DNA from: a virus
Direction: 5' to 3' (one strand)
Virus record (IMG/VR): IMGVR_UViG_3300045988_162375
Span: 746 to 64,745 of that record
DNA length: 64,000 bases
Shown: positions 8,215 through 63,352 of the stretch, piece after piece
Layout: each line of letters opens with the position of its first letter
Position numbering within the stretch: position 1 is the stretch's first letter
Position numbers and translations under genes: made by a program
The notes under the pieces: model-generated
The model's database searches: none
The model's input: the letters and a program-made list of their open reading frames with translations, nothing else
Told to the model about the DNA's origin: nothing

Positions 8215-8741
8215 CGGGAACTCGTCTAAGCGAGTCTAAACAGATCTTTAAGCTTAGAGCGTCTCTGGTCTTTATGACCAGAGGGTAGATAGAAGAAATT
8301 TAGATTTATAAAAATTTTAAATTTCTTATAAATTTATTATTATTGTGTTAATATTAACCCACCTAATTATAAATAATATGGAAGAATTTTGAATTCGGAA
8401 ATATAATACTTAAAGGTGGGGCGGAGGATATGGCCAGTTCCCTTGAGACAGTGCCATATTCAAGTATGTTATCTAGTCAATAATGTACTTCAGAGAAGGT
8501 TTTATACGCTCTGTTCCATTGTGCTATCAAGCCTTAACCCGACTTAAACTTAGTCTATGGGACTTTGATCGGTCCCATAGGCTCTTATGTGGTAGTGATT
8601 GCCGCGTTACTTCAATTTTGTTCATAGTGTTATTACTCTCTTCGAAATTGCCACATCTTGCAAGATCTGAGGGTTTGGTTGCAATCCAAGAAGCAGAAGA
8701 AAGAAAATGGTTATAAACTAAGTATTTCAAGCAACAACGTC

Positions 8742-11571: not shown

Positions 11572-11644
11572 AGAGCTATAGTATTTATAGGTAAGTACAC
11601 TACTCTGAGGAGTAGAGATAGAGGTTCAAATCCTCTTAGCTCTC
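11572..11644 (+). tRNA. tRNA-like gene with a non-canonical 6-nt anticodon loop (possible pseudogene)
   Basis: Perfect acceptor AGAGCTA/TAGCTCT and T arm AGAGG-TTCAAAT-CCTCT, but anticodon arm CTACT-CTGAGG-AGTAG has a 6-nt loop. Confidence 0.3.
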
Positions 11645-12205
11645 CAAGACTTTTAAAATTTGTATAATGGAAAAAGTGACACAAAATGTACCTGATACAG
11701 GTTGTACAGATCCTGATGAATTCGTGAATGACCCTTGTATCGAAGCCATAGAGGATGAAGAACTTCTTAACATAGAATAATATGTACATAATAACTTTAA
11801 TTTTAGGAATTGTAGGTGTCGTCCTTCTTGCTTTTGCAATCAGGGAAGATGAAGATGATCGAGCCTTCCCGTTGGGAATACTATCAGTAGTCTCTCTGAT
11901 ATGCTCAGTGATGCTCTGGTGCTATACTGACACCAAGCATGAACGAGAACAACCCTTAACAACAATTTCAACTTTTGTTGAGGAGCATTCTCAATATCTC
12001 TCTCCAACTACAGTGAGAACTATAAGTGCAGCACCTATTCGGAAAATACCTGATGGATGTTTCGTATATAATGTTATTCTGGTTGATCAGGATTCTATGT
12101 ATACGTATTCTGCAGTTCTGGACCCTGAGAACATTGAGGTAGTTAATTTTATTCTCGAAGAATCTATTCCTCGACTCGAAAATCATCAAAATAAAAAAAT
12201 AAACA

Positions 12206-22998: not shown

Positions 22999-23820
22999 TG
23001 CGGGGTAGAGCAGAGGCCAGCTCGTCAGCCTCATAACGGACTTATGTCTAAGATGAAGCTTGTCTACTTATTTATACGAACCTTTGTAAAGTTCGAAATT
23101 TTTTGTATATTTGTAGTATAAATTAATAATTAATACTATGAATAAATACTCAAAACAAGAACTAGAAACGTATATTTTAAAGGATAAACTTTCATATACA
23201 GCAATTGGAGGTATTTATGGAGTAACTGGAGCAGCAATAAAGAAAGCTGCTTTAAGGTATGGAATTATATTACCTAAAAAGAGAACCATAAATGCGAAAG
23301 AGAACTTTAGTCACAAAGGGAAATCTAAAGTAGACTCTTTTTCAGATTCAGAATTTATAGAAATTATTTCTAGTAACATTGGTTGGAAAAATATTGGATT
23401 TGCGCTGGGATATACTAACCGCCCATCAAGTGATGTTGTTTCAAATATAAAAAGTAGATGCTCGAAGTTAGGTATTGAGCCTATTATTGAACAACCTTCT
23501 CCAATACTATTTAAAACTAAGGGAGAATTATTATCTTCTAGAAAAAATTACCAAAGTTATAGAAGTTCTATTAGAAAACATGCTGAGTTAACCTATTTTA
23601 GATCAACTAAGGTTAAAAAATGTGCAATATGTGGATATGATAAACATATAGAAATTGCACATATTAAATCAGTAGCAGAGTTTGATGATTCTGTAACAAT
23701 TGCTGAAATCAATTCCGTTGATAATCTCATAGCTTTATGCCCTAACCATCATTGAGAATACGATAATGGATTGATTACGATATAAGCTGAAGGTCGGGGG
23801 TTCGAATCCCTCTCCCGCTA
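22999..23820 (+). tRNA. Split initiator-like tRNA(CAT): 5' part 22999-23036, 3' part 23786-23820, interrupted by a ~750-nt insertion encoding an HNH endonuclease
   Basis: 5' part TGCGGGG-TA-GAGCAGAGGCCAGCTC-G-TCAGC-CTCATAA closely resembles bacterial tRNA-fMet including the 1:72 mismatch; 3' part GCTGA-AGGTC-GGGGG-TTCGAAT-CCCTC-TCCCGCT-A supplies the complementary anticodon-stem strand, T arm and acceptor strand. Confidence 0.5.
23138..23755 (+). CDS. HNH homing endonuclease (inside the split tRNA(CAT))
   Basis: 205 aa; C-terminal HNH motifs (CAICGYDKHIEIAHIKS...LIALCPNHH); paralogous to the two HNH ORFs at 28.7 and 29.7 kb; contains no TGA. Confidence 0.65.
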   Translation: MNKYSKQELETYILKDKLSYTAIGGIYGVTGAAIKKAALRYGIILPKKRTINAKENFSHKGKSKVDSFSDSEFIEIISSNIGWKNIGFALGYTNRPSSDVVSNIKSRCSKLGIEPIIEQPSPILFKTKGELLSSRKNYQSYRSSIRKHAELTYFRSTKVKKCAICGYDKHIEIAHIKSVAEFDDSVTIAEINSVDNLIALCPNHH

Positions 23821-23878: not shown

Positions 23879-24523
23879 ATGGTTTGCATATATCGTATAA
23901 TAAATAAAATAAATAATAAACAATATGTAGGTAAAACTACAGTAGGAATCTGAAGAAGATGAAAGACTCACATAAGGGATTGTGAGAAAAGGGAAGAAGA
24001 AAGTCGTCCGCTGTATAGAGCTTTTCACAAGTATGGAATTTCTAATTTTAGAATTGAAATTTTAGAAGAATGCACTTTAGAAAAGTTATCAGAAAGGGAA
24101 ATCTATTGGATAAGTAAGCTTAATACTTATAAATTTGGGTATAACGCTACCAAGGGTGGAGATGGTTCACAGCTGTACAATTATGAGGAAATAGTAGCTC
24201 TTTATAAAGAAGTAAAGTATGTATGTAAAGTTGCAGAAATTGTGCAATGTTCAACCGATACTGTTAGTAAATGCTTAAAACTTTATCAAATTCCAGTATA
24301 CCATCATTTATCAGGTAATGTTAATTCTCCAAGAAAGATTCAGCAGTACTCTTTAGAAGGTGATTGATTATGTGAATTTAATTCAGTGCAGGAAGCTGCG
24401 GAGTGATTATATAATAATGGAAAGGTTAAAACTTTGAGTTCTGGAGTCCGAGGTCATATATCGGATGCCGCTAGAGGTAAAATAAAATCCGCATATAAAT
24501 ACACATGAAAATATAAACAATAA
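23879..24523 (+). CDS. GIY-YIG homing endonuclease, 215 codons with 5 in-frame TGA
   Basis: N-terminus MVCIYRIINKINNKQYVGKTT (GIY-YIG), YWISKLNTYKFGYN; track shows no ORF here because the gene is broken by TGA codons. Confidence 0.55.
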
Positions 24524-25294: not shown

Positions 25295-25366
25295 GCACCT
25301 TTGGTGTAATTGGTAACACGATGGTCTCCAAAACCATAGTTTAGAGTTCAAGTCTTTAAGGGTGTG
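25295..25366 (+). tRNA. tRNA-Trp(CCA)
   Basis: Anticodon arm ATGGT-CTCCAAA-ACCAT, T arm TAGAG-TTCAAGT-CTTTA, acceptor GCACCTT/AGGGTGT with G1-U72. Confidence 0.7.
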
Positions 25367-25423
25367 CATAGTTTTATTATTATTTATTACAAAGTCTCTT
25401 CAGCAAAATTTATAGCATGGGGG

Positions 25424-25495
25424 CACTACGGTCACAGGTTCAATTCCTGTTTAATAGAAAAGTTCTATTAATAGCTCAGTTGGTAGAGCATAGTT
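25424..25495 (+). tRNA. Inverted-order tRNA halves (3' half 25424-25458 immediately upstream of a complementary 5' half 25465-25495): candidate permuted tRNA gene or remnant
   Basis: 3' half: CACTA-CGGTC-ACAGG-TTCAATT-CCTGT-TTAATAG-A; 5' half: CTATTAA-TA-GCTC-AGTTGGTA-GAGC-A-TAGTT; acceptor strands are perfectly complementary and anticodon-stem strands pair 4/5. Confidence 0.3.
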
Positions 25496-25516
25496 AAAAA
25501 TATAGAGACTTTATAT

Positions 25517-25607
25517 CTGGGTATGGAGGAGTCAGGTCAACCTCGCTGGTTTTGGGAACCAGAGCAAGCTGTAATGGCGGGCGCAAGTTCGAATCTTGCT
25601 ATCCAGA
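25517..25607 (+). tRNA. tRNA with anticodon TGG (Pro-like, G37) but an unusually long (~20 nt) variable region, 91 nt
   Basis: Acceptor CTGGGTA/TATCCAG, D arm GAGG-AGTCAGGTCAA-CCTC, anticodon arm CTGGT-TTTGGGA-ACCAG, T arm GCAAG-TTCGAAT-CTTGC. Confidence 0.4.
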
Positions 25608-25623
25608 CAATATTTAAAAATAT

Positions 25624-26981: not shown

Positions 26982-27148
26982 TAAAACAAACAAAATATTT
27001 GACGATAGACTTAGCTTCAGACTTAGACTAAGTAGCAAAGAGCTGTAATATCCTAGATAAATTACAAGGAGCTACATAAGATTTAGTGTCGCGTCAAAAG
27101 CTTTAGTCTCAAAGTTAATAAGGATGTGCTAATTCACTAATAAAAAAA

Positions 27149-27232
27149 TCATAAGACTGGGGGTTCGAGTCCCCCATTCGCCGCTAATTAAATCACTATA
27201 TGGCGAATTGGAGAAATGGTTAACTCGTATGA
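27149..27232 (+). tRNA. Second inverted-order tRNA half pair (3' half 27149-27183, 18-nt spacer, 5' half 27202-27232)
   Basis: 3' half: TCATA-AGACT-GGGGG-TTCGAGT-CCCCC-ATTCGCC-G; 5' half: GGCGAAT-TG-GAG-AAATGGTTAA-CTC-G-TATGA; acceptor and anticodon-stem strands are perfectly complementary. Confidence 0.3.
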
Positions 27233-27342
27233 ATACAATAAGTTAAAGTGAATTAGATGCACATTATCGTACAATATTTAAAAATACTGTAATTCATCAA
27301 TGAAGGAGAAGTAAGCGGGCCATGCTTGCTTCTCCATTTTAT

Positions 27343-27422: not shown

Positions 27423-27522
27423 CATGGTTTTCGTAATTTGATTTGTTTTAGTGAAAGGTAACTTACAGCAAATTTAAGTATAATTCGTCTGTTAATTATT
27501 CATAGTTACCTAGTTTTAAGGA

Positions 27523-27609
27523 GCGGGTATGGCGCAATTGGTAGCGCAGAGCACTTTTAATGCTAAGGGAGCCGAAAGGCCGTTCAGGGTTCAAGTCCCT
27601 GTGCCCGCA
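27523..27609 (+). tRNA. Type-II-fold tRNA (19-nt variable arm, A73) with anticodon loop CTTTTAA (TTT, Lys-type)
   Basis: Acceptor GCGGGTA/TGCCCGC, D arm GCGC-AATTGGTA-GCGC, anticodon stem GAGCA/TGCTA (one mismatch), variable GGGAGCCGAAAGGCCGTT, T arm CAGGG-TTCAAGT-CCCTG. Confidence 0.45.
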
Positions 27610-27801
27610 CTATTTTTTGGATATATAAAATAAAGTTATTATCTTTGTAACACAAGGTTACTTCAGCAAGCTTCTTCTACTGAATTGTATTTTGTTGAAC
27701 AGCGATCTGGGTTCGAGTCCCAGTTATAGGAAACTTCAGGGCTGAGAAGTACTATAGTCGTCTAATGGTAGGATGTAAATTAGAGTAACCTAGCCCAATA
27801 T

Positions 27802-27885
27802 GTACAGATGGCCGAGTGGTCGATGGCACAAGACTGTTAATCTTGCAGATTTATCTCACCGTAGGTTCGATTCCTGCTCTGTACG
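27802..27885 (+). tRNA. Ser-like type-II tRNA (G73, 15-nt variable arm) with anticodon loop CTGTTAA (GTT, Asn-type; one change from Ser GCT)
   Basis: Acceptor GTACAGA/TCTGTAC, D arm GCC-GAGTGGTCGAT-GGC, anticodon arm CAAGA-CTGTTAA-TCTTG, variable CAGATTTATCTCACC, T arm GTAGG-TTCGATT-CCTGC. Confidence 0.5.
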
Positions 27886-27903
27886 CTTAAACTTTAATGA
27901 AAA

Positions 27904-28683: not shown

Positions 28684-29418
28684 ATGAAACGTTTTAAAGA
28701 ACTTTCAGATGATATAATCAGAACTGTGTGAAATAACAGTAAAAGTTTGTTTGAAATTTGTAAAAAGTTAGAAATTCATGATAATATTTCTAATAGAAAT
28801 AAATTAAAAGAATGGGCAGTTAAAAATAAAGTGGAGATTCCTGTTACTAACATACTTACAAAAGATAGTTATGAAAAGAATCCTAAACTATGTAAACAAT
28901 GCGGAAGTGCAATTTCATGAAGTAAGAGAGCCAATGACTTTTGTTCCCATTCATGCAGTGCTACATATATAAATTTAAAAAGAGGCGCTAAGTCAAGTGG
29001 TAAGTATGTTCGTGGTGCTACTTCTATCTGTGTAAATTGTGGAAATGTAGTACCTGCAAGAAATCAATATTGTAATCACAAATGCCAAGCTGAATATGCC
29101 TACAAGGAATTTATCAAACGCTGAAAAGAAGGTAAAGAATTAGGAATGGCAGGTGAAGATGGATTATCTGCACATATTCGACGATATTTATTAGAGAAGG
29201 CTAATTATACCTGTGAAATTCCAGGATGTGGATGTAATTTCATTAATTCTTATACTAATTTATCCATTCTTCAGGTACATCATATTGATGGAGATGCAAC
29301 TAACAATAAAGAAGAAAATCTCCAGGTTTTGTGTCCAAATCATCATGCAATGACTGAACATTTTGGATCAAGGAATAAAAATAGTACTAGACGATATCGA
29401 TACTCTAAAAATAAATAG
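28684..29418 (+). CDS. HNH endonuclease, free-standing between tRNA genes, ~245 codons with 3 in-frame TGA
   Basis: Frame from MKRFKELSDDIIRTV-W-NNSK... runs through 3 TGA into track ORF 29146-29418 (HHIDGD...NLQVLCPNHH); N-terminus paralogous to the 23138 HNH. Confidence 0.55.
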
Positions 29419-29644: not shown

Positions 29645-29726
29645 GCCTCCTTGGCACAGCGGCGACTGCAACGGTTTTGTAATCCGTCTTCATTTGAACG
29701 CGTCGGTTCGAGTCCGACAGGAGGCT
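29645..29726 (+). tRNA. tRNA with 14-nt variable arm and anticodon region TTTTGTAAT (TGT by canonical numbering, ambiguous)
   Basis: Perfect acceptor GCCTCCT/AGGAGGC, T arm GTCGG-TTCGAGT-CCGAC, variable CTTCATTTGAACGC, anticodon stem ACGG(T)/(T)CCGT with a 31-39 mismatch. Confidence 0.4.
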
Positions 29727-29742
29727 CTAAAATACTATAATT

Positions 29743-30309
29743 ATGAAACAATCAAAATATGATTATAATTTATTAAATAAATGAATTAATGAGGAGAATC
29801 TCAGTTATGAAGAAATAGGTCGTAAGTATGGAGTTACTGGGAATGCTATTAAGAAAGCAGCTAAACGTATTGGTGTTACTTTAACTCCTAGGAAAGCTCT
29901 AAAGACTCTTAAGAGTGTAAGAATCAGGAAATGTATAAATTGTGACAAAGTGCTCGATTATACCGCTGCTAAATTTTGTTCAAAACACTGTCAATGAGAT
30001 TTCCAATACAAAAAATATATTTCTTTGTGAAAAAGTGGCAAAGTAAACGGAATTACTGGGAAAGCTGATATTTCATCACATGTTAGACGTTATTTATTTG
30101 AAAAATACCATTCAAAATGTCAAATATGTGGATGATCTCAAATAAATCCTGTAACTGGTAAGATCCCTTTACAAATTCATCATATAGATGGAGACTGTTT
30201 AAATAATAAAGAAAATAATCTTCAATTGTTGTGCCCTAATTGCCATTCTTTAACTTCAACTTTTGGAAGTCTAAATCCCAATAGTAAAAGGAGTTACAGA
30301 AGACATTAA
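29743..30309 (+). CDS. HNH endonuclease, free-standing, 189 codons with 4 in-frame TGA
   Basis: MKQSKYDYNLLNK-W-INEENLSYEEIGRKYGVTGNAIKKAAKRIGV..., C-terminal HHIDGD...LLCPNCH; paralog of the 23138 and 28684 genes. Confidence 0.55.
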
Positions 30310-43174: not shown

Positions 43175-43259
43175 GCGGAGGTGACCAGAATGGATAATGG
43201 ACCAGTCTTCTAAACTGGCGGCTGAATAGCCATTGTGGGTTCGAGTCCCACCCTCCGTA
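43175..43259 (+). tRNA. Type-II-fold tRNA (3-bp D stem, 16-nt variable hairpin, A73) with anticodon loop CTTCTAA (TCT, Arg-type)
   Basis: Acceptor GCGGAGG/CCTCCGT (G1-U72), D arm CCA-GAATGGATAA-TGG, anticodon arm CCAGT-CTTCTAA-ACTGG, variable CGGCTGAATAGCCATT, T arm GTGGG-TTCGAGT-CCCAC. Confidence 0.5.
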
Positions 43260-43911
43260 CTAATAACATTATAATATGGCATGGATATACAGAGATAAAA
43301 ATGGAGACTTAATGTTCTCCAAAGTAAAACCTGAAAAAGTTTATATTTTCAGATTTAAAAATTATGAAATTCATAAAGAATCAGAAAGTAAATATTTTAT
43401 TGGGGATCGTAATTATATTTTTACAGTTAAAATATTAGAATCTTATTTTCAACATCCTGGATATTATGAACTAAAAAGTTTTGATGGAGAGGAAGTATTA
43501 AGAAAAATTTATATTCAAGATGTTATTTTTGAAGGAGACTACACTATGGGTTTTCCTGTAGAATTTAAACCTGAGACTATTTCTGCTTTAAAATCTATTG
43601 TTGATTTAGAGAATCTTACTATTGAGGATGGATTAATTGAACTATAATGAAAGAGATTAAAATTAACAATAACATTGAAGAAGATCATGTTCCTTTATAT
43701 AATCCTGAAGGTAAGTTAGTTGGAATTATAGAAAATGAACTAGCTTTTAATGATGTTCGTATTCAAATCATGGAAAACAAACTAAGAGGGTACTATATTG
43801 TATATAAAGGTCAGGTATGTCGAATAGATATTCATGGAGAATTAGATATTTGGCCTAATGACTTATATAGGACAAATGTAGACCAACTATCAAAATTATT
43901 ATGCTTTTAGT

Positions 43912-46656: not shown

Positions 46657-46667
46657 TAGAAAGGATG

Positions 46668-47364
46668 GGGATGTAGTGTAATGGTAGCACAGCGGTCTTT
46701 AACTGAATAAAATTATGAGTGATTGAAAAACAATTGAAAAGGGTTACTTAGGTAGCCTACTAGTAGAACAGAAATTTATTGAAAATGGGTATAACCTATT
46801 TAAACCTGTTTTAGAGAATGGGAAAGTAGATTTAATTGCAGAAAAAGATAATAAATATATTAAACTGCAGATTAAAACTATACAAATAGAAAGTAATGGT
46901 AGAAGAATAATTCCAGTGAGAAAAATATCTCATAATATGGGAGAATATAAAGTAAAACTGTATACTGAAAAAGATATAGATTATTTTATTGGAGTTGACT
47001 TAGATACTAAAGACTTATATATTTTACCTGTACATTTCTCTTCTCAGTATAGAAGTTCTATTGGTGTAAACAGTTGTCAAGATTACAAAAATAATTTTAA
47101 ACAAATGGAGCCTATTAGTGGAAACACTAATAGTGGACACGATGATAACGTTGAATCCTTAACAGATAATGCTGATGGTAACGACGTCGGAATAGAAGAA
47201 ATTCTAGCCGCGAACGAGTAGATAATCGTGCACCTAAGTCGAAAGATATGGTGAAGACGTACTCTAGACTACAAACGAAAGGCAGTGAAAACTGTAGTGG
47301 TAAGCAAAACCGTAAACGGGGGTCTCCAAAACTCCAGGTGTGGGTTCGAATCCTGCCATCTCTG
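46668..47364 (+). tRNA. Split tRNA-Trp(CCA)-like gene: 5' acceptor/D-arm part 46668-46693, 3' part 47318-47364, separated by a ~620-nt insertion containing an ORF
   Basis: 5' part GGGGATG-TA-GTGT-AATGGTA-GCAC-A; 3' part G-GGGGT-CTCCAAA-ACTCC-AGGT-GTGGG-TTCGAAT-CCTGC-CATCTCT-G. Acceptor strands pair at all 7 positions (3 G-U). No 5' acceptor lies adjacent to the 3' part. Confidence 0.4.
46715..47221 (+). CDS. ORF inside the split tRNA-Trp; putative PD-(D/E)XK-type endonuclease, 169 codons with 1 in-frame TGA
   Basis: MSD-W-KTIEKGYLGSLLVEQKFIENGYNLFKPVLENGKVDLIAEKDNKYIKLQIKT... restriction-endonuclease-like pattern; joins track ORF 46916-47221 in frame. Confidence 0.35.
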
Positions 47365-55264: not shown

Positions 55265-55570
55265 ATGTTGTTTAGTTGCAGTTCAGACTGGACAATATTC
55301 TAAATTGGTGTTTGAGGACCTTAATAGGGATCCTTGCGATGATTTAAAATATGTCACTGTTGTAATGCTTCCAAATTGAGACTATAAAGATACTCTCAAA
55401 ATTGGAGATACTGGATATCTGCAATTTGAAAGTGTAAAAGCTGGAGAAACTCAGTGATATAATAGAGAAATACAAGATTTTGCAGTTTATAAATTTAATG
55501 CTAATTATTTTATAAACTTCATTAAACACAAAGAGATAAATAATATGAAAGAATTTAAGTTTGATTAAAT

Positions 55571-56401
55571 ATGGATACAGAATTTGGAGCTAAGTTAAAG
55601 GAAGCTATAACGGCTAAAGACAATGATATTAATAGCTTGGTATGAAAAGACAAAACTGGTGTAAACATTCGTTTAATGGATATTTCCCAGAATGAACTAA
55701 AGCGATATCATCGTCATTGCGAACAAATGCTAACTAACAGGGACATTTACAAACCTGGTAAATTAGTAATTCGTGAAAACATCCAAAAATGTTGAGATTC
55801 TTGTAATGCTGAATTGTTTGCAAGATATTTAATGCATGATTGTGAGACAGATATTAAAACCAATAAAGATCTACTTGACTTTATCAATGTCCAAAGAAAA
55901 GCAAATAATGTAGATGTGGAAGACAGTATTTCAGTTTTATTTACTGGACTTCCTCCTATCTATGAGAAAGTTACTGTAGGGAAGTTAATGGATGTATGTT
56001 TTGATAAGCTTGATGTACTTAACAAAAAGATGATTACAGACAAGTTTATTATTGCGCAGGGAATCTGACTCACAGACGAAGAAAAACAAGAGCTCACAGA
56101 ATTAGAAACAGGGGGTAAAATTAGAAATCGAATGGAAGTTATCAAGGAAAGACTTTGTCTTAATCCTGATATTAGACTGCGTGTAAGTCCTACAGGACTT
56201 TCATTTGCTGAGTTTAGAGCTTTAATTCAACTTTCTGATCTCCCTAAAATATCTTCCTTGTCTACAATTGCTCTTAAAACTCTTAGAGACAAAGTTTTAC
56301 TGCTTTTGGACAATGATCTTGATTATCATATCAATAAATGGATGAAAATTAAGAAGGATATTGAACGAGTAGCAGAATATAAAAACTGGAATTTAGATTA
56401 G
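55571..56401 (+). CDS. hypothetical protein, 277 codons with 3 in-frame TGA
   Basis: Frame from ATG 55571 runs through TGA at ~55640, ~55784 and 56066, joining track ORFs 55814-56068 and 56132-56401; contains both TGG and TGA codons. Confidence 0.4.
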
Positions 56402-56426
56402 GTTCTGAAAATTAATTTTAGTAATT

Positions 56427-57356
56427 TTGGAACAAGTAAATACAACACTATTAAAAGCTCTATGCGAAATAGTACATCCTTCTAGACAGGAACAGTCCAT
56501 GATAACTTATATACTTAACTTCTGTTATACAATAGAAGGTATACAATTTGAAATGGATGATGAAAATAATCTTTTTATTACAAAAAATACTACTAATCCA
56601 GCGGTATATCCTTGTCTAGTAGCACATATGGATGAAATTCTACATTATACAGGTGTAAAATGTGCAAAAATTAAAGGAAATAAAATTTATGGCTATTATA
56701 AGAAGACAGGAAAACAATGTGGACTTGGGTTAGATGACTGTTTTGGCATCTATATTTGTCTACATTGTTTATATTGCCTTCCAGACCTAAAAGTTTGTTT
56801 CACAACTCAAGAAGAAATGGGTTGTATAGGAGCAGAAATTGCAGGTTTAAATATTGATTTCTTTGATAATTGCAGATTCCTGTTACAAGCTGATAGAATG
56901 GGAGGTCAAGATTTGATTACACATACTAATGGCATAGACATTACTTCAGATGAGTTTCTAGAAGATATAGATAGTCTTTTAGAAAAATATAAGTACAAAG
57001 AGGCACGAGGTACAATGACAGATGTTGGAACTTTAAAAGAAAACATTAATCTGTCTGCAGTTAATATTTCGTGCGGATATTATTGTGCTCATACACACAA
57101 AGAATATGGAAATTTAACGGAGTTAAATAATTGTTTAAATTTTATCTTAGAGATTATTAGGCTTAATGATAAAGTTTATGAACATACAGCTGATCTTTCT
57201 GGATCATATGCAAGGTATTCAGATTTTGATTGGCCTCCTGGAGAATCTAGGCATGTTTATGCTTACCAAGATTCTGATGAAGCTTTCTATGAAAATCTTG
57301 CAGATAAGTGTTCCAACTGTAAGACTTATAGATGTGATGAGTGCGGTTACTATTGA
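56427..57356 (+). CDS. putative M42/M28-type metallopeptidase-like protein with C-terminal zinc ribbon
   Basis: LVAHMDEI (H-x-D) and TTQEEMGCIGAE (EE-x-G) resemble co-catalytic metallopeptidase motifs; CSNCKTYRCDECGYY at C-terminus. Confidence 0.35.
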   Translation: MEQVNTTLLKALCEIVHPSRQEQSMITYILNFCYTIEGIQFEMDDENNLFITKNTTNPAVYPCLVAHMDEILHYTGVKCAKIKGNKIYGYYKKTGKQCGLGLDDCFGIYICLHCLYCLPDLKVCFTTQEEMGCIGAEIAGLNIDFFDNCRFLLQADRMGGQDLITHTNGIDITSDEFLEDIDSLLEKYKYKEARGTMTDVGTLKENINLSAVNISCGYYCAHTHKEYGNLTELNNCLNFILEIIRLNDKVYEHTADLSGSYARYSDFDWPPGESRHVYAYQDSDEAFYENLADKCSNCKTYRCDECGYY

Positions 57357-57364
57357 CGTGGCTA

Positions 57365-58585
57365 ATGGACAAAACTCAACGTCAACGATTAGGCGTTCAA
57401 AAATGAATTAATAATAAAGGAAATGGGATTTGGGTTTGAAGTACTGGTGTTGGTAAATCATTTGGAGCTTTAATGGCTTGTGTGAAATTACTAAAAATTA
57501 GACCAGATGCTAAAATTCTAATTTCTGTACCTACAACAATTCTCAAGGAACAATGACTAAGAGACGTAGCTAAAACTAAATTCTTTGGAAATGTTACTGT
57601 TGAGGTTATTAATTCTATTTTAAAAAAATCTTGAGAAGTTGATTTTCTAATAATTGATGAGCTTCATACTGCGGTATCGGAGCAGTCAATAAAAATATTT
57701 GATCAAGTTAAGTATGATTTCTTTCTGGGGCTTACAGCTACTTTAGAAAGACTTGATGGAAGAGAGGAATTACTATCTTTATATACTAGAGTAATTGATG
57801 TCATTACAACTGAAGAAGCAATAAAAAATGGATGATTATCGCCATTTAGGTATTACAAAGTTCTTGTGGAGGTTGATGACATGGATACTTATTATGTAAT
57901 GAACCAAAAGTTTAATTCAGTTTTTGCATTCTTTAATTTTGATTTCAGTTCTGCAATGAAATGTGCAACTGATCGAAAGTTCCGTAATAATTACGCTTAT
58001 AAGATGGGATATGATAGAAAGCAGGTTTTAAATGCTGCTATGGCGTGGATGCAATTAATGCAGAAGCGCAAAAAATTTGTTATGTCCCACCCTAAAAAGT
58101 TTGAAATAGCGAAAAAAATTATAGAAGCAAGAAAAGATAAAAAAATTATTACTTTTTCAGCCACTATTAAAGATGCGGAATCTTTAAAAGTTGGATATAC
58201 TCTTCATAGCAAAAAGAAAAAACAAGAAAACTCAGAAACTATTGCATTGTTTAAGTCTCAATCTTCAGGGGTTCTTAATACATCTAAAGCAGCTAATGCA
58301 GGATTGGATTGCCCTGATATAAATTGTGAGATTAGAATTAGTGGAACTAGTTCTGGAATTGATGCAAGGCAGATTTTGGGAAGGGGATTGCGTTATGTTA
58401 ATAATAAGATAACTGAAGTTTTTACTTTGGTTGTTAAAGGCACTAATGAAGAATCCTGGTTTAATAAGGCCCATCAAGGCATTTCATATATTACTATCAC
58501 TGAAGATCAACTTGACTTAGTTTTAAAAGGAGAAGAAGTAATCACAAGAAAACGAGATGATGTAATTACTAACTATAGATTTTAA
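57365..58585 (+). CDS. SF2 DEAD/DEAH-box-type helicase, 407 codons with 5 in-frame TGA
   Basis: MDKTQRQRLGVQK-W-INNKGNGIWV-W-STGVGKS (Walker A), LIIDELH (Walker B), continuing in frame into track ORF 57866-58585 with QILGRGLR motif VI. Confidence 0.55.
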
Positions 58586-58650
58586 ACAGTACTAAGTATC
58601 GTAATAACTGTAGGTACTTAGATTTGAATTTAACTTCCAAAACTATATAA

Positions 58651-59250
58651 ATGGAGTTAAATACAATACTTAACATAATGGCAGAATATCATATTAGTGC
58701 AGACGAACTGTTACTAATATGATTAACTCTCTATGCTCGGGATGAAGAAGGCCATTCTGAGCTTTTCTTAAAGTGGTGGACAGATTGTGAGGGAAAACAG
58801 AAACTGAAAACCATGTTTGAGAACCTAAAAGAAAAATCCATAATCAAGAAGAATTATAATCCAGAATCTTATGTTCCTAATGATATTGAATTTAATAAAA
58901 ATTTTCTAAAGAAGTATTATAAACAATCAGGAGTTCTTGGAAAAGAGCTATTTGATAACTATGAACCATTTATCCAAATTAATGGAAAGATGGCCAGTCT
59001 TAGAAATATTGCTAAGAAATTTTATACTTTAGAGGAATTTTACTTTTATTATTCTTCTCAAATAGGACATAATCCAGAAAAGCATAAAGAGGTGATGGAA
59101 ATTTTACGATGGGCTCGTGAAAACAAGCTTTGTAAAGTTTCTATTCTTGAGTTCGTTGCTTCTCATAAATGGAATGAATTTGCACAGATGAAGGCTGAAG
59201 GATTTAGTCCTGATGTTGGTACTTCTTTTGATGTTTATCAGGATTTTTAA
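58651..59250 (+). CDS. hypothetical protein, 1 in-frame TGA
   Basis: ATG 58651 in frame with track ORF 58813-59250 through one TGA. Confidence 0.35.
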
Positions 59251-60344
59251 TGGAGGATCTAAATTTACTTTGGCATTTAATTGAGCAAGGCAGAAAAGGG
59301 GAAAATAAAGGTTTGTCTGTAGGATTACCTAAATTAGACAAGATTATAGGTGGAATACAACCCTCGAGATACTATTGTATATCTGGAGCATCTTCTGCAG
59401 GTAAAACTGCTTTAGTTCTGTATTTCATATATCGGCTTTTTAAGGATTATCCTAAAGAACCTATATATCTTGTTTATTTTAGTTTGGAGATTGGTTCTGA
59501 AGTGCTACTAGCGAAGCTTATGGCTTTGTATTGTGCAGAAGAATTTGGAGTATATCTTACTATAAATGATATCCTTTCCTTTGATTCTATTCTCAGTGAT
59601 TCTGATTATCAGTATCTAAAGAAGGCAAGAGACTGGATTGCAACTCTTGGTTCCAGGTTAATTATTCTTGATAAGGGTCTTAATGCTCGCATTCTATATA
59701 AAGAGATTTGTGAGCTTATGAAGAAATTAGGTTCTATAGAAAATGTAGGAAATAAAGAAGTTTATGTTCCAAAACATCCTAGGCAAAGAGTAATTGGAGT
59801 TATTGATCACATGTCATTAATTAGACCAGAAGAAGGAAGAACCTTAAAAGCTGAAATTGATTTAACTTCGTCTTTTATGGTTACACTAAAACGTAAGTTT
59901 TATCTTTCTTGAATGGCTTTAATGCAGCAGAATAGAGAATCTTCTTCTATGGATAGAAGAAAAGCAGAACTTAATGAACCAGGTTTAAATGACGTAAAGG
60001 ATTCAGGAGGACCTGTTCAAGATAGTGATGTGGTTCTTCAACTATATTATCCTGCAAGAGACAAAATTCCAACATACCGAGAGTATAAAATTCTCGGACC
60101 TCATAGTTTAGCTGGAAGATTTAGAAGTATTATTGTATCTAAGAATAGATATGGTATTGCAGACAGAGTAATAGGATGTGGATTTTATGGAGAAGTTGGA
60201 TGGTTTAAAGAACTTCCACTAGGAAGAGATATTACTGACTTCACAAAATATTTGGACATTAACGCTAACATTAGAGGTATAGATACAACTGTAGTAGGTA
60301 CAGTAGAAATAGATAAGAACAACATCGTATATAGTTTATCATAA
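59250..60344 (+). CDS. DnaB-family replicative helicase (RecA-fold C-terminal domain), 1 in-frame TGA
   Basis: Walker A GASSAGKT; track ORFs 59250-59912 and 59913-60344 are joined by a single TGA; H4 region LMQQNRESSSMDRRKAELNEPGLNDVKDSGGPVQDSD matches DnaB. Confidence 0.55.
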
Positions 60345-60345
60345 T

Positions 60346-61083
60346 ATGTCTATTGTATTACCAACAGCGAAGGTTCCCGCTGAAACTCAGGATCCTAAAA
60401 ACTTAATTCTATTTGGACTTCCTAAAGTAGGAAAAACTACCATTCTTAGTACACTGGAAAATAATCTTATTCTTGACTTTGAAAATGGTTCTACATATGT
60501 AGATGCTCTTAAAGTTAAGGTTTCTAGTTTAAAAGAGCTAAAAGAGGTTATTAAAGCTATCAAGGATGCAGGAAAGCCATATACTTATATTACAATTGAT
60601 ACAATCACAGCCTTAGAAGAAATGACCAAAGATATGGCTCTTAAAATGTGGCAAAATTCTCCTCAGTTTACTACAAAGTATGAAATTAAGGACGTTACAC
60701 AAATTCCTAATGGAGCTGGATATAGTTTTTGAAGGCAGGCACTGGAAACAGTTATTGACTTAATTGCCTCTGCTGCTCCTAACTTAATTATTTGTGGTCA
60801 CGTTAAAGATACAGCATTATCTGAAGGTCTTGATGGATCTGTAAAAGATCTTGATCTTGTAGGTAAAACTAAAAGGGTATTATCTGCTAAATCTGATGCA
60901 ATTGGATTTGTTCATCGTGATGAAGAATCTAATTTGTGTATCAATTTTGGTATGAATGGAGAAGTACTTTGTGGTGCTCGTCCTGCTCATTTGGCAAATA
61001 AAGATATCATTGTAGCTGAGTATCAAGAAGATGGTACATTTGTATCTCATTGGGAGAGAATCTATCCCTCTCTGTCTAAATAA
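60346..61083 (+). CDS. RecA-like/AAA ATPase (Sak4-like?), 246 codons with 1 in-frame TGA
   Basis: LILFGLPKVGKTT Walker A; the ORF continues past TGA at 60730 to TAA at 61081. Confidence 0.45.
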
Positions 61084-61088
61084 ATCAT

Positions 61089-61589
61089 ATGTTTAAAGTA
61101 ACATTTGAATTTGATGAAACAACTAAGTCTATTAGTAACTTAAAGTGTGAGGAACTTAAGTCTTCAAAACCAAAGGTTAACTCTAATGGGCAACCAATCA
61201 TTGAAGTAGGAGAAAATAAGTTAATTATTTCTCCTGAAGCAGCCGCTCTAATCGGAGCAACTGCTGGAGATAGAATCTCAATTGCTTATTCTCAAAAATC
61301 TAATGAGGTAACTATTCCTCTTATTGGCAAATCTGAAATGTTTGCGGATAAAGATGCTGGGAACAAGCTAACTAAATCAAATACTGTTTCCTTTAAAGGT
61401 AAGCAAAGAACTATGCTATTACAGTATGGTTCTATATTCAAACTGGAACAAAGTACTAGAGATCAGGTATTTGACCTGATAGCAGTTACTGAAGATTCTA
61501 GTACAGAATTGGCTTCAGAGGAATTAAAAGAAGAGACTCTTGATTTAGATATAACAAATTTTGAAGAATTAGATAAATTACCTTTTTAA
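61089..61589 (+). CDS. hypothetical protein with acidic C-terminal tail ending LPF
   Basis: 166 aa, ...EELDKLPF. Confidence 0.35.
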   Translation: MFKVTFEFDETTKSISNLKCEELKSSKPKVNSNGQPIIEVGENKLIISPEAAALIGATAGDRISIAYSQKSNEVTIPLIGKSEMFADKDAGNKLTKSNTVSFKGKQRTMLLQYGSIFKLEQSTRDQVFDLIAVTEDSSTELASEELKEETLDLDITNFEELDKLPF

Positions 61590-61604
61590 TAAAAAATAAA
61601 TAAT

Positions 61605-62294
61605 ATGGGAATGTATGATGCTACCAGCGCGGCTCGTGCTGAGGTTAAACCCGCAGCGAGTTATTTGCGTGCAGGTATTCACAATGTAAGATTCACTGGT
61701 GTTGAGAAAGGAACTAGCGAATATTCAACAATTGATTTTTCCTTTGAGGGTGTTGATGAAGGAGAAGTAGGTGCTCTTCATAATGAGCGTATGTTCGAGC
61801 CTAAGTCCTCAGAACGTATGCCTAATCGTTTCAATTCAGCTATTACTGATCCTTCTCAGGCAGAACAGTTTATGTGTAAACTTATGCATATTATTGCTGC
61901 ACTAAATCCTGCTGCACATAAAAAGATTCAAGATGGGACTGCCAAGTTTGCACCAAGTGATTTCGACACTCTTATTAAACTGGTTAAGAAGATTCTCGAT
62001 CCAGTAGTTGGTACAGAGGTTCAGATTAAACTTCTGCCTAATGGTCGTTTCTGTGGTTTTCCAGGATTTCCTGCAAGAATCAGCAAGAATGGAGATCTCT
62101 TCTTGAGTACTTCATTCATTGGGCAGGATCTAACTTTATCTGCCTATGAAAAGGCACAAATTGATAAAGCAAACGCTGCTCAGCCTACTAATATGACTAA
62201 TACTGGTTCTGAACTCGACAGCATGCGTCGTGATATTGATGAATTGGAAGAAGAGAGTTCCAGTTCAATTGATGACGACGATTTGCCTTTCTAA
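61605..62294 (+). CDS. putative ssDNA-binding/annealing protein with SSB-like acidic tail
   Basis: 229 aa ending ...SSSIDDDDLPF (cf. SSB C-terminal DDDIPF). Confidence 0.35.
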   Translation: MGMYDATSAARAEVKPAASYLRAGIHNVRFTGVEKGTSEYSTIDFSFEGVDEGEVGALHNERMFEPKSSERMPNRFNSAITDPSQAEQFMCKLMHIIAALNPAAHKKIQDGTAKFAPSDFDTLIKLVKKILDPVVGTEVQIKLLPNGRFCGFPGFPARISKNGDLFLSTSFIGQDLTLSAYEKAQIDKANAAQPTNMTNTGSELDSMRRDIDELEEESSSSIDDDDLPF

Positions 62295-62308
62295 ATTTAG
62301 AAGTTTAG

Positions 62309-63352
62309 ATGCAATTTACATTAGGACCGACCACTGTTACTAAAGAACTAATTCTGAACAGTGTAAGTGAAGAAACTTTAATGGAGCATTATTTAGGAGT
62401 CCCTGTGAAAAAGGGACTCCTAAAATCTCCGTTAAGACAAGATAATAAACCCACTTGTGCTTTTTATAGAAACAAGAAAGGAGATCTTATATTTAAGGAC
62501 TTCCGTGGTGATTTTTCAGGTAATTTCATTTCGGTTGTAATGTATAAATTTCAATGCTCTTACGGAAAAGCCTTAAATATTATTGCTAATGACTTTGGAA
62601 TAGTCTCTCGACCTAAACTGCAAGTTAATCCCCCTCTTATTAAATATACAAATAAAAAGTTTGAGGAAACACAAGAAGCTATTATACAAATAGAAGTGAA
62701 GGATTTTGAACAGTATGAGTTAGATTGATGGCTAAAATTTGGAGTTACTAGAAAGATATTAAGGAAATTTAGAATATTTTCCTGTAAGAACGTTTTTCTA
62801 AATGGAAACATATTTCATCTTCATAAAGATAAACAATTAGTTTTTGGATATTTTGGAGGTATTCGAGAAGATATTGAACGCTGGAGAATATATTTTCCTG
62901 GCAATACAAAGTATAAATTTATATCTAATTGAAAATCTTTTAGGTTGCAGGGAGCACATGCTCTTCCCAAAGAGGGAGGAGAATATCTTGCAATTACTAA
63001 ATCTTTAAAAGATGTTGCATGTTTATATAGTTGTGGTATTACAGCTATAGCCCCAATTTCTGAGAACTGTTTTGTTACAGAGGCTCAATTTGAAAGGCTA
63101 AGTAAAAAATTTAAAAAAATTATTCTTTTTTACGATAATGACTCTGCTGGAATAACTCACATGAATAAGTTTAGAAAACAATTTCCAGATGTTTATGTGT
63201 TATGAATCCCCCGTCATTTTGGCGCGAAAGATATTTCTGACTATTATAAGAAGTATGGTAGGGAAAAAACACTGAACTTAATCGAACAAGCTAAACTTAA
63301 GGTTAATGCCGAAGAAGAAAGAAGAAGAAAGTCCAAAGAAAAAGAGGTCTAA
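62309..63352 (+). CDS. DnaG-type primase (Toprim domain), 348 codons with 3 in-frame TGA
   Basis: Track ORFs 62309-62728 and 62945-63205 share a frame through TGA; Toprim ILFYDNDSAGITHM; putative zinc-binding N-terminal region. Confidence 0.45.

What the first reader, a model, noticed from the sequence alone, without database searches (positions are those of the whole stretch)
46668..47364. Second split tRNA: tRNA-Trp(CCA) body separated from its 5' acceptor/D arm by ~620 nt encoding a nuclease-like ORF
The 3' part (anticodon arm CTCCAAA, T arm, acceptor strand CATCTCT) has no 5' partner nearby. A perfectly complementary acceptor strand plus D arm (GGGGATG-TA-GTGTAATGGTAGCAC) sits 620 nt upstream, followed by a degenerate copy of the anticodon stem (GCGGTCTTTAA versus GGGGTCTCCAAA). 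The intervening ORF (46715-47221) has a PD-(D/E)XK-like pattern. This is the second tRNA in the window interrupted by an endonuclease gene, suggesting mobile introns or inteins-of-tRNA in this lineage.
Basis: partly seen in the sequence, partly recalled or inferred. Interest (0 to 1): 0.7.

Follow-up and report, generated by a model that had tools for sequence, protein, structure and literature searches.

The report
Intron-split opal suppressor tRNA gene
A phage that reads the stop codon TGA as tryptophan carries its TGA-reading tRNA gene split by a self-splicing-type (group I) intron that encodes a homing nuclease, which explains why standard tRNA finders miss this gene.

Summary
The two tRNA pieces and the nuclease ORF are real. 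They do not form a tRNA-Trp(CCA) split next to the D arm.

Eight related phage contigs carry the uninterrupted gene, reading ...GCGGTCTT|CAAAACCGT.... This places the junction between positions 34 and 35 of the anticodon loop. The mature anticodon is therefore UCA, an opal (UGA) suppressor with a tRNA-Trp-like body.

Its stem covaries and its loop CUCCAAA is conserved.

The 605-nt insert (46700-47304) has group I intron anatomy:
- U34 pairs with G in a guide sequence.
- It has P2-P9, a P3/P7 pseudoknot and a terminal G.
- 99% of cells are paired and 15 pairs show compensatory changes.

Rfam's group I model does not detect this core.

The ORF sits in the P1 loop and matches the I-Ssp6803I homing endonuclease family. 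Its single Trp codon is TGA in every ORF-bearing copy examined, so translation needs UGA suppression, for which the only candidate tRNA found in this window is its own host gene.

The window uses TGA as Trp in many genes, and no other UCA tRNA was found in it.

Splicing, charging and nuclease activity are inferred, not shown.

Verdict: a new variant of a known kind.

The parts
46667..46699 (+). Exon 1 of tRNA(UCA). Contains the acceptor 5' strand GGGGATG, TA, the D arm GTGT-AATGGTA-GCAC, A26, the anticodon stem 5' strand GCGGT, and loop bases C32 U33 U34.
   Evidence: Sequence. The 24-mer is shared by 48 viral contigs. Intron-less alleles continue directly with CAAAACCGT.
46700..47304 (+). Group I-type intron, 605 nt. 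It begins with UAACUG and ends with GGUAAG (terminal G at 47304).
   Evidence: Boundaries are fixed by comparison with intron-less alleles. The core structure is supported by covariation.
46715..47221 (+). Homing endonuclease ORF, 168 aa, PD-(D/E)XK of the I-Ssp6803I family. It lies in the P1 loop and runs on through the guide sequence and P2-P6 to a TAG stop inside P7. Codon 4 (46724-46726) is TGA, read as Trp.
   Evidence: Pfam PF11645 E=1e-14 over residues 8-119. PDB 2OST E=0.005. A near-identical 168-aa protein is in the public collection: identical over the 132-aa query, with one difference, R for G at residue 141, in the ribozyme-encoded tail. Codon 4 is TGA in every ORF-bearing copy examined.
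47106..47111 (+). Internal guide sequence UGGAGC. P1: G47110-C32, A47109-U33, G47108-U34 wobble, extended by G47107-U46700 and U47106-A46701. P10: G47107-C47305 and U47106-A47306.
   Evidence: Read from the sequence. GGAGC is conserved in all 23 intron variants, with T or C before it. There is no variation, so covariation cannot be tested.
47112..47133 (+). P2 hairpin CUAUUAGUG-GAAA-CACUAAUAG.
   Evidence: 4 of 9 pairs show compensatory changes. Recovered by MFE folding.
47138..47230 (+). P3 (47138-43 with 47225-30) encloses P4 (47148-53 with 47182-87), P5 (47157-58/47177-78 and 47163-65/47172-74), P6 (47188-90/47208-10 and 47193-97/47202-06) and the 5' strand of P7 (47216-20).
   Evidence: P4 and P6 have compensatory changes. 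P3 and P5 are invariant.
47231..47253 (+). P8 hairpin with a GAAA loop.
   Evidence: 3 pairs with compensatory changes. Recovered by MFE folding.
47260..47264 (+). P7 3' strand UACUC, pairing with GAGUA at 47216-20. This forms a pseudoknot with P3. J8/7 is AAGACG at 47254-59.
   Evidence: U-A changes to C-G in 2 sequences. By eye, J8/7 plus P7 resemble the Rfam consensus UGAAGAUAUAGUCU (consensus shown).
47268..47304 (+). P9.0 (47268-72 with 47297-301) encloses P9 (47282-86 with 47291-95, GAAA loop). Then AAG, ending in the terminal G at 47304.
   Evidence: Both helices have compensatory changes. Recovered by MFE folding. This 3' end is shared with the Rfam-detectable Type A introns.
47305..47364 (+). 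Exon 2: C35 A36 A37 A38, anticodon stem 3' strand ACCGU (47309-13), the variable region with the extra arm, the T arm GUGGG-UUCGAAU-CCUGC (47340-56), acceptor 3' strand CAUCUCU (47357-63) and discriminator G47364. No CCA is encoded.
47319..47335 (+). Extra arm GGGGU-CUCCAAA-ACUCC.
   Evidence: All 5 stem pairs covary and loop positions 2-7 (UCCAAA) are invariant in 14 sequences; position 1 is C in 13 and G in L080. UCCAA lies in the variable region of 23 of 32 long tRNA(UCA) genes from unrelated contigs, in the predicted hairpin loop in 22 of them. The window's own tRNA-Trp(CCA) has the same loop.

Best explanation
The locus is one gene for an opal-suppressor tRNA with anticodon UCA and a tRNA-Trp-derived body. 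It is interrupted between U34 and C35 of the anticodon loop by a 605-nt group I-type intron.

Proposed mechanism (inferred, not shown):
1. The precursor folds so that the anticodon stem GCGGU/ACCGU brings the two splice sites together.
2. C32-U33-U34 pair with the guide GAG at 47108-10, with a U34-G wobble, forming P1.
3. The compact P2-P9 core binds guanosine, cleaves after U34, and joins U34 to C35 after the terminal G47304.
4. This gives a 93-nt tRNA(UCA).

The mature tRNA keeps a second hairpin with the loop CUCCAAA in its variable region. The phage needs this tRNA because many of its genes use TGA for Trp.

The intron's P1 loop holds a PD-(D/E)XK homing endonuclease gene of the I-Ssp6803I type. 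By analogy, the nuclease cuts intron-less tRNA(UCA) alleles near the anticodon-loop sequence and so spreads the intron.

Its only Trp codon, codon 4, is always TGA. The nuclease can therefore be made only once a UGA suppressor is available, and the only candidate found in this window is the spliced product of its own host gene. Early termination at codon 4 would also keep ribosomes off the ribozyme core, which the ORF overlaps.

Shown: gene structure, junction, conserved and covarying RNA structure, protein family, and use of TGA as Trp.
Inferred: self-splicing, Trp charging, nuclease target, and the timing logic.
For: Junction and tRNA identity:
- 8 intron-less alleles read GCGGTCTT|CAAAACCGT, and ARAGORN calls them tRNA(tca) of 93-97 nt.
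- The spliced window sequence gives a 94-nt tRNA(tca).
- Its best annotated relatives in GenBank phages are tRNA-Trp genes.

Ribozyme:
- On 11 distinct cores, 57 proposed pairs are 99.2% paired, against 24-52% when the partners are slid.
- 15 pairs carry compensatory changes, and 0 of 500 shuffles reach that number.
- MFE folding independently recovers P2, P5, P6, P8, P9.0 and P9, with z=-3.1.
- ORF-less introns at the same site share the guide sequence and the 3' end. They hit Rfam Intron_gpI at E=0.009 with the AGACUA...GAUAUAGUC core.

Mobility:
- The same core occurs in several forms: with the PD-(D/E)XK ORF, with an unrelated HNH/EndoVII-like ORF fused to the same ribozyme-encoded tail, with decayed ORFs, and with no ORF.
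- About 37 of 48 contigs carry an intron.

Protein:
- PF11645 E=1e-14.
- I-Ssp6803I structure 2OST E=0.005, with the D...QxK residues aligned.

Genetic code:
- GIY-YIG, HNH, helicase-like, ATPase-like and primase genes in the window need TGA read through.
- With TGA masked as X, one TGA aligns to the conserved W of I-TevI.
- No other UCA tRNA is found in the window.
Against: - Rfam's group I model does not detect the window's core type, even in an ORF-less copy.
- P1 is short (3 exon pairs plus 2 intron pairs) and invariant, so it has no covariation support. P3 and P5 are also invariant.
- The 11 cores are closely related, so some covariation counts may reflect shared descent.
- No RNA data were available, so splicing is not demonstrated.
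- The long variable arm plus G73 could in principle attract SerRS, so Trp charging is not proven.
- Only 64 kb of a genome of roughly 170 kb was examined (size judged from the 171,367-bp contig that holds the near-identical protein). Another UCA tRNA could lie outside the window.
Confidence: 0.85

Rival explanations
1. One reading: a tRNA-Trp(CCA) whose anticodon arm is the CUCCAAA hairpin. About 620 nt, including the GCGGUCUU piece, would be removed from between the D arm and the anticodon arm.
For: The CUCCAAA hairpin is followed by a 4-nt stretch and then the T stem. That spacing is like a class I variable loop. The hairpin is identical in its loop to the window's tRNA-Trp(CCA) anticodon loop.
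Against: - Intron-less alleles keep the UCA hairpin in the gene, directly after A26.
- ARAGORN places tca as the anticodon.
- Splice sites at 26/27 would have neither a U before the cut nor a fitting terminal G.
- The covarying ribozyme ends at G47304, not at 47318.
- The phage already has a normal tRNA-Trp(CCA) at 25295-25367.
Confidence: 0.03
2. A dead gene: the endonuclease element has disrupted a tRNA(UCA) gene, the insert no longer splices, and suppression is supplied from elsewhere.
For: Rfam does not recognise the core. P1 is weak. Some copies have decayed ORFs. The tRNA-Met gene in the same window looks simply disrupted.
Against: - The RNA core stays intact and covaries even where the ORF has decayed or been replaced.
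- The exons remain a perfect cloverleaf with covarying acceptor, T and extra arms.
- The window depends on TGA=Trp and shows no other UCA tRNA.
Confidence: 0.08
3. The spliced tRNA reads UGA but inserts an amino acid other than Trp, for example Ser via SerRS recognition of the long extra arm plus G73, or acts as a selenocysteine tRNA.
For: ARAGORN labels it "SeC" because of tca plus a long arm. SerRS uses a long variable arm and G73 as identity elements (PMC7609411).
Against: - The acceptor/T arms are 7/5 bp and the D stem is 4 bp, not the 13-bp acceptor/T helix and long D stem of tRNA-Sec.
- A masked TGA aligns with the conserved Trp of I-TevI.
- Codon 4 of the endonuclease is W, F or Y in homologues.
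- The nearest annotated relatives are tRNA-Trp genes.
- Published zeta crAss-like phages read TGA as Trp (PMC12386605).
Confidence: 0.07

Closest known systems
Synechocystis PCC 6803 tRNA-fMet group I intron encoding I-Ssp6803I (PDB 2OST)
   Same: A group I intron in a tRNA anticodon loop carries a PD-(D/E)XK homing endonuclease of Pfam family PF11645. That the known enzyme targets the anticodon region of the intron-less tRNA gene is from my own recollection of Bonocora and Shub 2001 and Zhao et al. 2007.
   Different: - The host here is a phage, and the host gene is a stop-codon suppressor tRNA.
- The insertion site is 34/35.
- The ORF lies in the P1 loop and is read on through the ribozyme core.
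- The ORF contains a conserved TGA that needs a UGA suppressor.
- Protein similarity to I-Ssp6803I is remote (E=0.005).
Cyanobacterial and plastid tRNA-Leu(UAA) group I intron (Anabaena type, subgroup IC3); Azoarcus tRNA-Ile and Agrobacterium tRNA-Arg introns
   Same: - The insertion position, between U34 and position 35, matches tRNA-Leu.
- P1 is very short, built from anticodon-loop bases, with a GAG-type guide.
- The core is compact with GNRA-capped hairpins.
- Splicing probably relies on exon pairing in the anticodon stem.
These properties of the known introns are from my own knowledge (Zaug, McEvoy and Cech 1993).
   Different: The window's core is not matched by Rfam RF00028. P7 reads GAGUA/UACUC instead of GACUA/UAGUC. 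The known tRNA-Leu, tRNA-Ile and tRNA-Arg introns have no ORF.
Phage group I introns with recoded endonuclease genes (Agate phages, Borges et al., bioRxiv 10.1101/2021.08.26.457843; intron-rich zeta crAss-like phages, PMC7886860)
   Same: Both are large gut phages with TGA=Trp and many introns. The published work notes an intron endonuclease that prefers TGA over TGG, and proposes that this delays nuclease production.
   Different: The published cases are in protein-coding genes. Here the intron sits in the suppressor tRNA gene itself, so nuclease translation needs UGA suppression, for which the only candidate tRNA found in this window is the product of its own host gene.
286-nt "tRNA-Arg" annotated in Microcoleus phage My-WqHQDG (OR578706.1)
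   Same: This is a phage record whose annotated tRNA feature spans a stretch similar to the Type A intron core. An intron-bearing phage tRNA therefore already exists in a public record.
   Different: It has a different tRNA and host, no endonuclease ORF inside the 286 nt, and no link to recoding. I did not analyse it further.
Class II tRNAs (Ser, Leu, bacterial Tyr) and tRNA-Sec
   Same: They also carry a base-paired extra arm between the anticodon and T arms.
   Different: Here the arm has a 7-nt loop whose sequence is conserved and equals a tRNA-Trp anticodon loop. The linkers on both sides are longer. The rest of the body is tRNA-Trp-like.

Membership tests
Group I intron | The 5' exon ends in U, which forms a U-G wobble with an internal guide sequence (P1). 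| tested here: met
   The junction fixed by intron-less alleles leaves U34 as the last exon base. GAG at 47108-10 pairs with C32-U33-U34, with a G-U at the splice site. GGAGC is conserved in all variants. The helix is short and invariant, so there is no covariation.
Group I intron | The intron ends in a guanosine (omega G). | tested here: met
   The intron ends ...GGUAAG at 47304 in the window and in all 23 variants.
Group I intron | A conserved core of paired regions P3-P9, with a P3/P7 pseudoknot in the canonical order. | tested here: met
   57 pairs are 99.2% paired. 15 have compensatory changes, distributed over P2, P4, P6, P7, P8, P9.0 and P9. No shuffle of 500 reaches this.
Group I intron | A guanosine-binding site in P7: a G-C pair followed by A-U, next to a bulged base. 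| tested here: inconclusive
   G47216-C47264 and A47217-U47263 are invariant and are preceded by an unpaired C47215. This is consistent with the feature, but assigning the site rests on my recollection of the Tetrahymena and Azoarcus cores.
Group I intron | A match to the curated covariance model Rfam RF00028. | tested here: not met
   There is no hit up to E=10 in the window or in an ORF-less copy of the same core type. ORF-less Type A relatives at the same site score 19.8 bits, E=0.009, below the gathering score of 50.
Group I intron | Self-splicing with a guanosine cofactor. | not testable with these tools
   This needs in vitro transcription and splicing, or RNA sequencing.
I-Ssp6803I-type PD-(D/E)XK homing endonuclease (Pfam PF11645) | Sequence membership in PF11645, and similarity to the solved enzyme. 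| tested here: met
   55.2 bits against a cut-off of 26.1. 2OST matches at E=0.005, with D39, Q52 and K54 aligned to D, Q and K of the chain. 220 relatives all carry PF11645.
I-Ssp6803I-type PD-(D/E)XK homing endonuclease (Pfam PF11645) | Encoded inside an intron, with intron-less target alleles present in the population. | tested here: met
   The ORF lies within 46700-47304. Intron-less, ORF-less, ORF-decayed and ORF-swapped alleles coexist in related contigs.
I-Ssp6803I-type PD-(D/E)XK homing endonuclease (Pfam PF11645) | Site-specific cleavage of the intron-less allele. | not testable with these tools
   This needs a cleavage assay.
   The arm that follows A26 carries UCA after splicing. 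CCA lies in the extra arm.
Opal suppressor tRNA inserting Trp | A cloverleaf with anticodon UCA. | tested here: met
   ARAGORN on the spliced sequence. Acceptor and T arms covary.
Opal suppressor tRNA inserting Trp | The genome uses in-frame TGA at Trp positions. | tested here: met
   Several genes are intact only with TGA read as sense. A masked TGA aligns to the conserved W of I-TevI.
Opal suppressor tRNA inserting Trp | Aminoacylation with tryptophan. | not testable with these tools
   Indirect evidence only: G73, a Trp-like body, and a Trp anticodon-loop copy in the extra arm.
tRNA-Sec | A 13-bp acceptor/T helix (8/5 in bacteria) and an extended D stem. | tested here: not met
   The arms are 7/5 bp with a 4-bp D stem. 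True Sec-like tRNAs with the same anticodon arm look different.

The most novel reading that the evidence does not exclude
The mature suppressor is a tRNA with two anticodon-type arms.

- The arm in the normal position (UCA) decodes UGA.
- The second arm is a preserved copy of the tRNA-Trp anticodon stem-loop (loop CUCCAAA). It would serve as a stand-in identity element, so that the host tryptophanyl-tRNA synthetase, which reads C34-C35-A36, still charges a tRNA whose working anticodon has been changed.

On top of this, the intron forms a self-referential circuit. The endonuclease ORF overlaps the ribozyme core and carries a fixed UGA at codon 4. Ribosomes are therefore kept off the ribozyme, and the nuclease is withheld, until a UGA suppressor has accumulated; the only candidate found in this window is the spliced tRNA itself.

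I found no description of either idea in the paper library searched.
Probability: 0.35. Interest if true: 0.85.

Novelty: new variant of a known kind. Interest (0 to 1): 0.68.

Why it matters
- Two studies of crAss-like phages state that stop-codon reassignment and detectable suppressor tRNAs do not match up. They suggest host suppressors or "extremely divergent" phage tRNAs as the reason (PMC7886860; PMC12386605).
- This locus gives a concrete and checkable cause. The suppressor gene is present but is split by an intron at 34/35, where tRNA finders do not look. About three quarters of the related contigs sampled carry such an intron.
- Annotation pipelines could recover these genes by searching for the exon pair or the ribozyme core.
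- The locus ties a selfish element to the phage's recoding switch. Nuclease translation needs UGA suppression, and the only candidate tRNA in this window is the one whose gene it invades.
- The conserved Trp-anticodon-like extra arm, found in 23 of 32 long UCA tRNAs from diverse viral contigs, is a testable lead. It bears on how a suppressor keeps its amino-acid identity after its anticodon changes, which is relevant to engineered suppressor tRNAs.

Tried and rejected
1. I first tried splice sites inside the shared GGTCT, or at 26/27, to keep CCA as the anticodon. None gives a U before the cut together with a terminal G. The intron-less alleles then ruled these out.

2. I considered an archaeal-type bulge-helix-bulge intron, because GCGGT pairs with ACCGT across the insert. 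That helix is simply the anticodon stem.

3. Rfam gave no group I hit for the window's core type, at gathering threshold or at E up to 10.

4. BLAST of the locus and tblastn of the endonuclease against the GenBank phage collection found nothing. This lineage is not in that collection.

5. I suspected circularly permuted tRNA genes at 25.4 and 27.1-27.8 kb and tried all junctions with ARAGORN, without a clear answer. Rfam then pointed to Y RNA-like (YrlA) elements instead.

6. I tested whether the other split tRNA (Met-CAU) is also a group I intron. The junction and Rfam both say it is not shown to be one.

7. Literature searches for an intron in a phage suppressor tRNA, or for an anticodon-like variable arm, returned nothing relevant.
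Full report
**Setting**

The window is AT-rich (35% G+C). It carries 24 ARAGORN tRNA genes, all on the + strand. Nucleotide-metabolism genes are present. A primase is about 33% identical to those of crAss-like phages.

Related contigs are 100-178 kb viral genomes from IMG/VR. Many genes are intact only if TGA is read as sense. These include GIY-YIG and HNH endonucleases in the tRNA array and helicase-like, ATPase-like and primase genes at 55-63 kb. The helicase and ATPase labels are by eye from motifs. When TGA codons of the GIY-YIG gene are masked as X, one aligns with the conserved Trp of the RWKRH motif of I-TevI. The phage therefore uses TGA as Trp. Neither ARAGORN nor Rfam finds a UCA tRNA in the window.

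**Checking the observation**

The described pieces are in the sequence. A 5' acceptor strand and D arm lie at 46667-46690. A 3' part with a CUCCAAA hairpin, T arm and acceptor strand ends at 47364.

The acceptor helix has two G-U pairs, so it is not perfectly complementary. ORF 46715-47221 needs read-through of TGA at codon 4. Under the standard code only a 101-aa ORF is listed. With read-through, the product matches Pfam PDDEXK_5 (PF11645) at E=1e-14.

**Where the gene is really split**

A scan of viral contigs with 24 bases of the 5' piece found 48 contigs. In 8 of them the sequence continues directly as GCGGTCTT|CAAAACCGT, followed by the rest of the 3' piece. ARAGORN calls these uninterrupted genes tRNAs of 93-97 nt with anticodon tca.

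The same 9-mer, CAAAACCGT, lies at 47305-47313 in the window, directly after a G. The insert is therefore 46700-47304 (605 nt). Exon 1 ends at U34 and exon 2 starts at C35. The anticodon stem is GCGGU/ACCGU and the anticodon is UCA. Joining the window's exons in silico gives a 94-nt tRNA(tca) by ARAGORN.

**What the insert is**

Related contigs carry inserts of 341-707 nt at exactly this site. They fall into two core types that share the first element after the splice site, (U/C)GGAGC, and the last 40 or so bases.

- *Type A* (341-360 nt, no ORF) hits Rfam Intron_gpI weakly (E=0.009). The match includes the hallmark AGACUA...GAUAUAGUC core. Parts of it resemble group I introns of other phages.
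- *Type B*, the window's type, has a compact core of about 200 nt that Rfam does not detect, even in an ORF-less copy.

For Type B I derived a structure by eye and tested it on 11 distinct sequences (alignment A1):

- 57 pairs are 99.2% paired, against 24-52% when the 3' partners are slid.
- 15 pairs carry changes on both sides, and 0 of 500 shuffles reach this.
- Compensatory changes occur in P2, P4, P6, P7, P8, P9.0 and P9. P3 and P5 never vary.
- The order is P2, P3, P4, P5, P6, P7, P3', P8, P7', P9.0, P9, terminal G, with P3 and P7 interleaved. This is the group I plan.
- MFE folding alone recovers the local hairpins (z=-3.1).

P1 is short. C32-U33-U34 pair with GAG at 47108-10, with a U34-G wobble. 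Two intron bases extend the helix. G47107 and U47106 can then pair with C35-A36 as P10. These helices are invariant, so they rest on sequence alone.

From my own knowledge, the Anabaena tRNA-Leu intron sits at the same 34/35 position. It also has a very short P1 and depends on exon pairing in the anticodon stem. The same could apply here.

**The ORF and mobility**

The ORF begins 15 nt into the intron, inside the P1 loop. It runs through the guide sequence and P2-P6, and stops at a TAG inside P7. The Pfam domain covers residues 8-119. The last 38 or so residues are simply the translation of the ribozyme core.

An unrelated ORF with weak HNH/EndoVII-like matches replaces the PD-(D/E)XK ORF in other contigs and is fused to the same tail. 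Other copies have the ORF truncated by a deletion, a frameshift or a stop. One Type B copy has no ORF at all, yet its core is intact. This mix of empty, occupied and decaying alleles is what a homing element produces.

The protein matches the solved I-Ssp6803I structure (2OST, E=0.005), with D39, Q52 and K54 aligned to D, Q and K of that chain. From my own recollection, I-Ssp6803I is encoded in the tRNA-fMet intron of Synechocystis.

The family is abundant, with 220 clusters, all carrying PF11645. A near-identical 168-aa protein is already in the public collection: identical over the 132-aa query, with one R-for-G difference in the ribozyme-encoded tail.

The same intron also sits in UCA tRNAs with other bodies (L077/L081, which lack the extra arm, and L079). 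These share only GGTCTT|CAAAACC. This suggests that the anticodon arm is the nuclease target.

**The TGA codon**

In the PD-(D/E)XK ORFs, down to 69% identity, the single Trp codon is TGA at codon 4. In the HNH-like ORFs both Trp codons are TGA, never TGG. Homologues have W, F or Y at that position.

Borges et al. noted a TGA-preferring intron endonuclease in Agate phages and proposed delayed production. Here the dependence is circular, because the nuclease needs a UGA suppressor and the only candidate found in this window is its own host gene. I also infer that early termination keeps ribosomes off the overlapping ribozyme until some tRNA has been made. That step is not tested.

**The extra arm**

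In 14 distinct spliced sequences, all five stem pairs of the extra arm change in a compensatory way. Loop positions 2-7 (UCCAAA) are invariant; position 1 is C in 13 sequences and G in L080. The D and anticodon arms are invariant only because the search pattern fixed them.

A second, unbiased scan used only the 15-base anticodon arm. It gave 47 distinct tRNA(tca) genes: 15 short and 32 long. Of the long ones, 23 have UCCAA in the variable region, in the predicted hairpin loop in 22 of them, across many different acceptor and D arms. The other 9 look Sec-like.

The loop equals that of the window's tRNA-Trp(CCA). The nearest annotated relatives of the spliced tRNA are tRNA-Trp genes. The simplest history is a duplicated anticodon arm of a tRNA-Trp, with C34 changed to U in the first copy.

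One hypothesis is that the second arm keeps TrpRS recognition. I found no report of such an arm.

**Comparison and novelty**

Group I introns in tRNA anticodon loops, and a PD-(D/E)XK homing endonuclease inside one, are known. A 286-nt "tRNA-Arg" in a Microcoleus phage record overlaps a group I-like core.

New here:
- the host gene is a phage stop-codon suppressor;
- the core type escapes Rfam;
- the ORF lies in the P1 loop and is read into the core;
- the ORF depends on UGA suppression, with its own host tRNA the only candidate in the window;
- the tRNA has a two-arm architecture.

Published analyses record TGA-recoded crAss-like genomes with no detectable suppressor. Intron-split genes like this one are a direct candidate explanation.

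**Limits**

- No RNA or biochemical data were available.
- The sequences supporting the core are closely related.
- P1, P3 and P5 lack covariation.
- Only 64 kb of the genome was seen.
- The other split tRNA in the window (Met-CAU) is not explained by this mechanism.

Noticed in passing
window 8220-8290 (+): A full-length match to the Pistol self-cleaving ribozyme (Rfam RF02679): 73 bits against a gathering score of 34.5. It lies about 450 nt upstream of tRNA-Glu.
   Followed up: no
window 23001-23820 (+): The other split tRNA, Met (CAU), has a 749-nt insert holding an HNH endonuclease ORF (23138-23785, with one TGA). An intron-less allele in L084 shows that the insert is bounded by an ATAA microhomology, so no choice of splice sites leaves a terminal G. 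There is no group I signal in Rfam. A terminator-like hairpin and a promoter-like motif precede the ORF. It may be a free-standing nuclease gene that simply disrupts the tRNA.
   Followed up: partly
window 25391-25515, 27090-27300, 27655-27790 (+); perhaps 27455-27520: These elements have a T arm and 3' acceptor strand followed by the matching 5' acceptor strand and D arm, all enclosed by a long-range helix next to a T(C/A)CAGCAA motif. They look like permuted tRNAs. However, 25405-25515 hits the Y RNA-like family YrlA (31.8 bits, E=2e-4, below gathering). A protein at 33484-35175 matches DUF2828/DUF7788 and PHROG 850, "RNA-binding protein". This could be a phage Ro/Y-RNA-type system with several Y RNAs.
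   Followed up: partly
window 23879-24523, 28684-29418, 29743-30309 (+): Three more endonuclease genes lie between tRNA genes: one GIY-YIG and two HNH. Nearly all their Trp codons are TGA, so they are invisible under the standard code.
   Followed up: partly
window 55559-63352 (+): Replication-type genes contain 1-7 in-frame TGA codons each: helicase-like 57332-58585, ATPase-like 60313-61083 and primase 62309-63352. Recoding is therefore not limited to late genes here.
   Followed up: partly
window 25517-25608, 27523-27610, 27802-27886, 29645-29727, 43175-43260 (+): tRNAs for Pro, Lys, Asn, Thr and Arg are 83-92 nt long. They have hairpins (some GNRA-capped) in the variable region, which is unusual for these amino acids.
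   Followed up: no
window 11572-11645 (+): ARAGORN reports a tRNA with a two-base "anticodon" (ga). Rfam scores it 49 bits as a tRNA. This is an odd anticodon loop.
   Followed up: no
L080 2061-2219: In a related contig, a complete tRNA-Pro(UGG) sits inside the anticodon-loop region of another tRNA. With the inner gene removed, ARAGORN calls the outer one Lys(UUU) with a 15-nt intron. This is a tRNA nested in a tRNA.
   Followed up: partly
L079 (reverse strand), about 540-1270 of the stretch printed: A contig syntenic with the window has the same intron and endonuclease, but in a very atypical tRNA-like body. It has acceptor GCGCCTG/CAGGCGT, anticodon stem GAGGT/ACCTC, and no normal D or T loop.
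   Followed up: no
L002 3660-3925 (-): A separate, Rfam-detectable group I intron (84 bits) lies about 2.6 kb from the tRNA(UCA) gene of that contig. This fits the intron-rich nature of the lineage.
   Followed up: no
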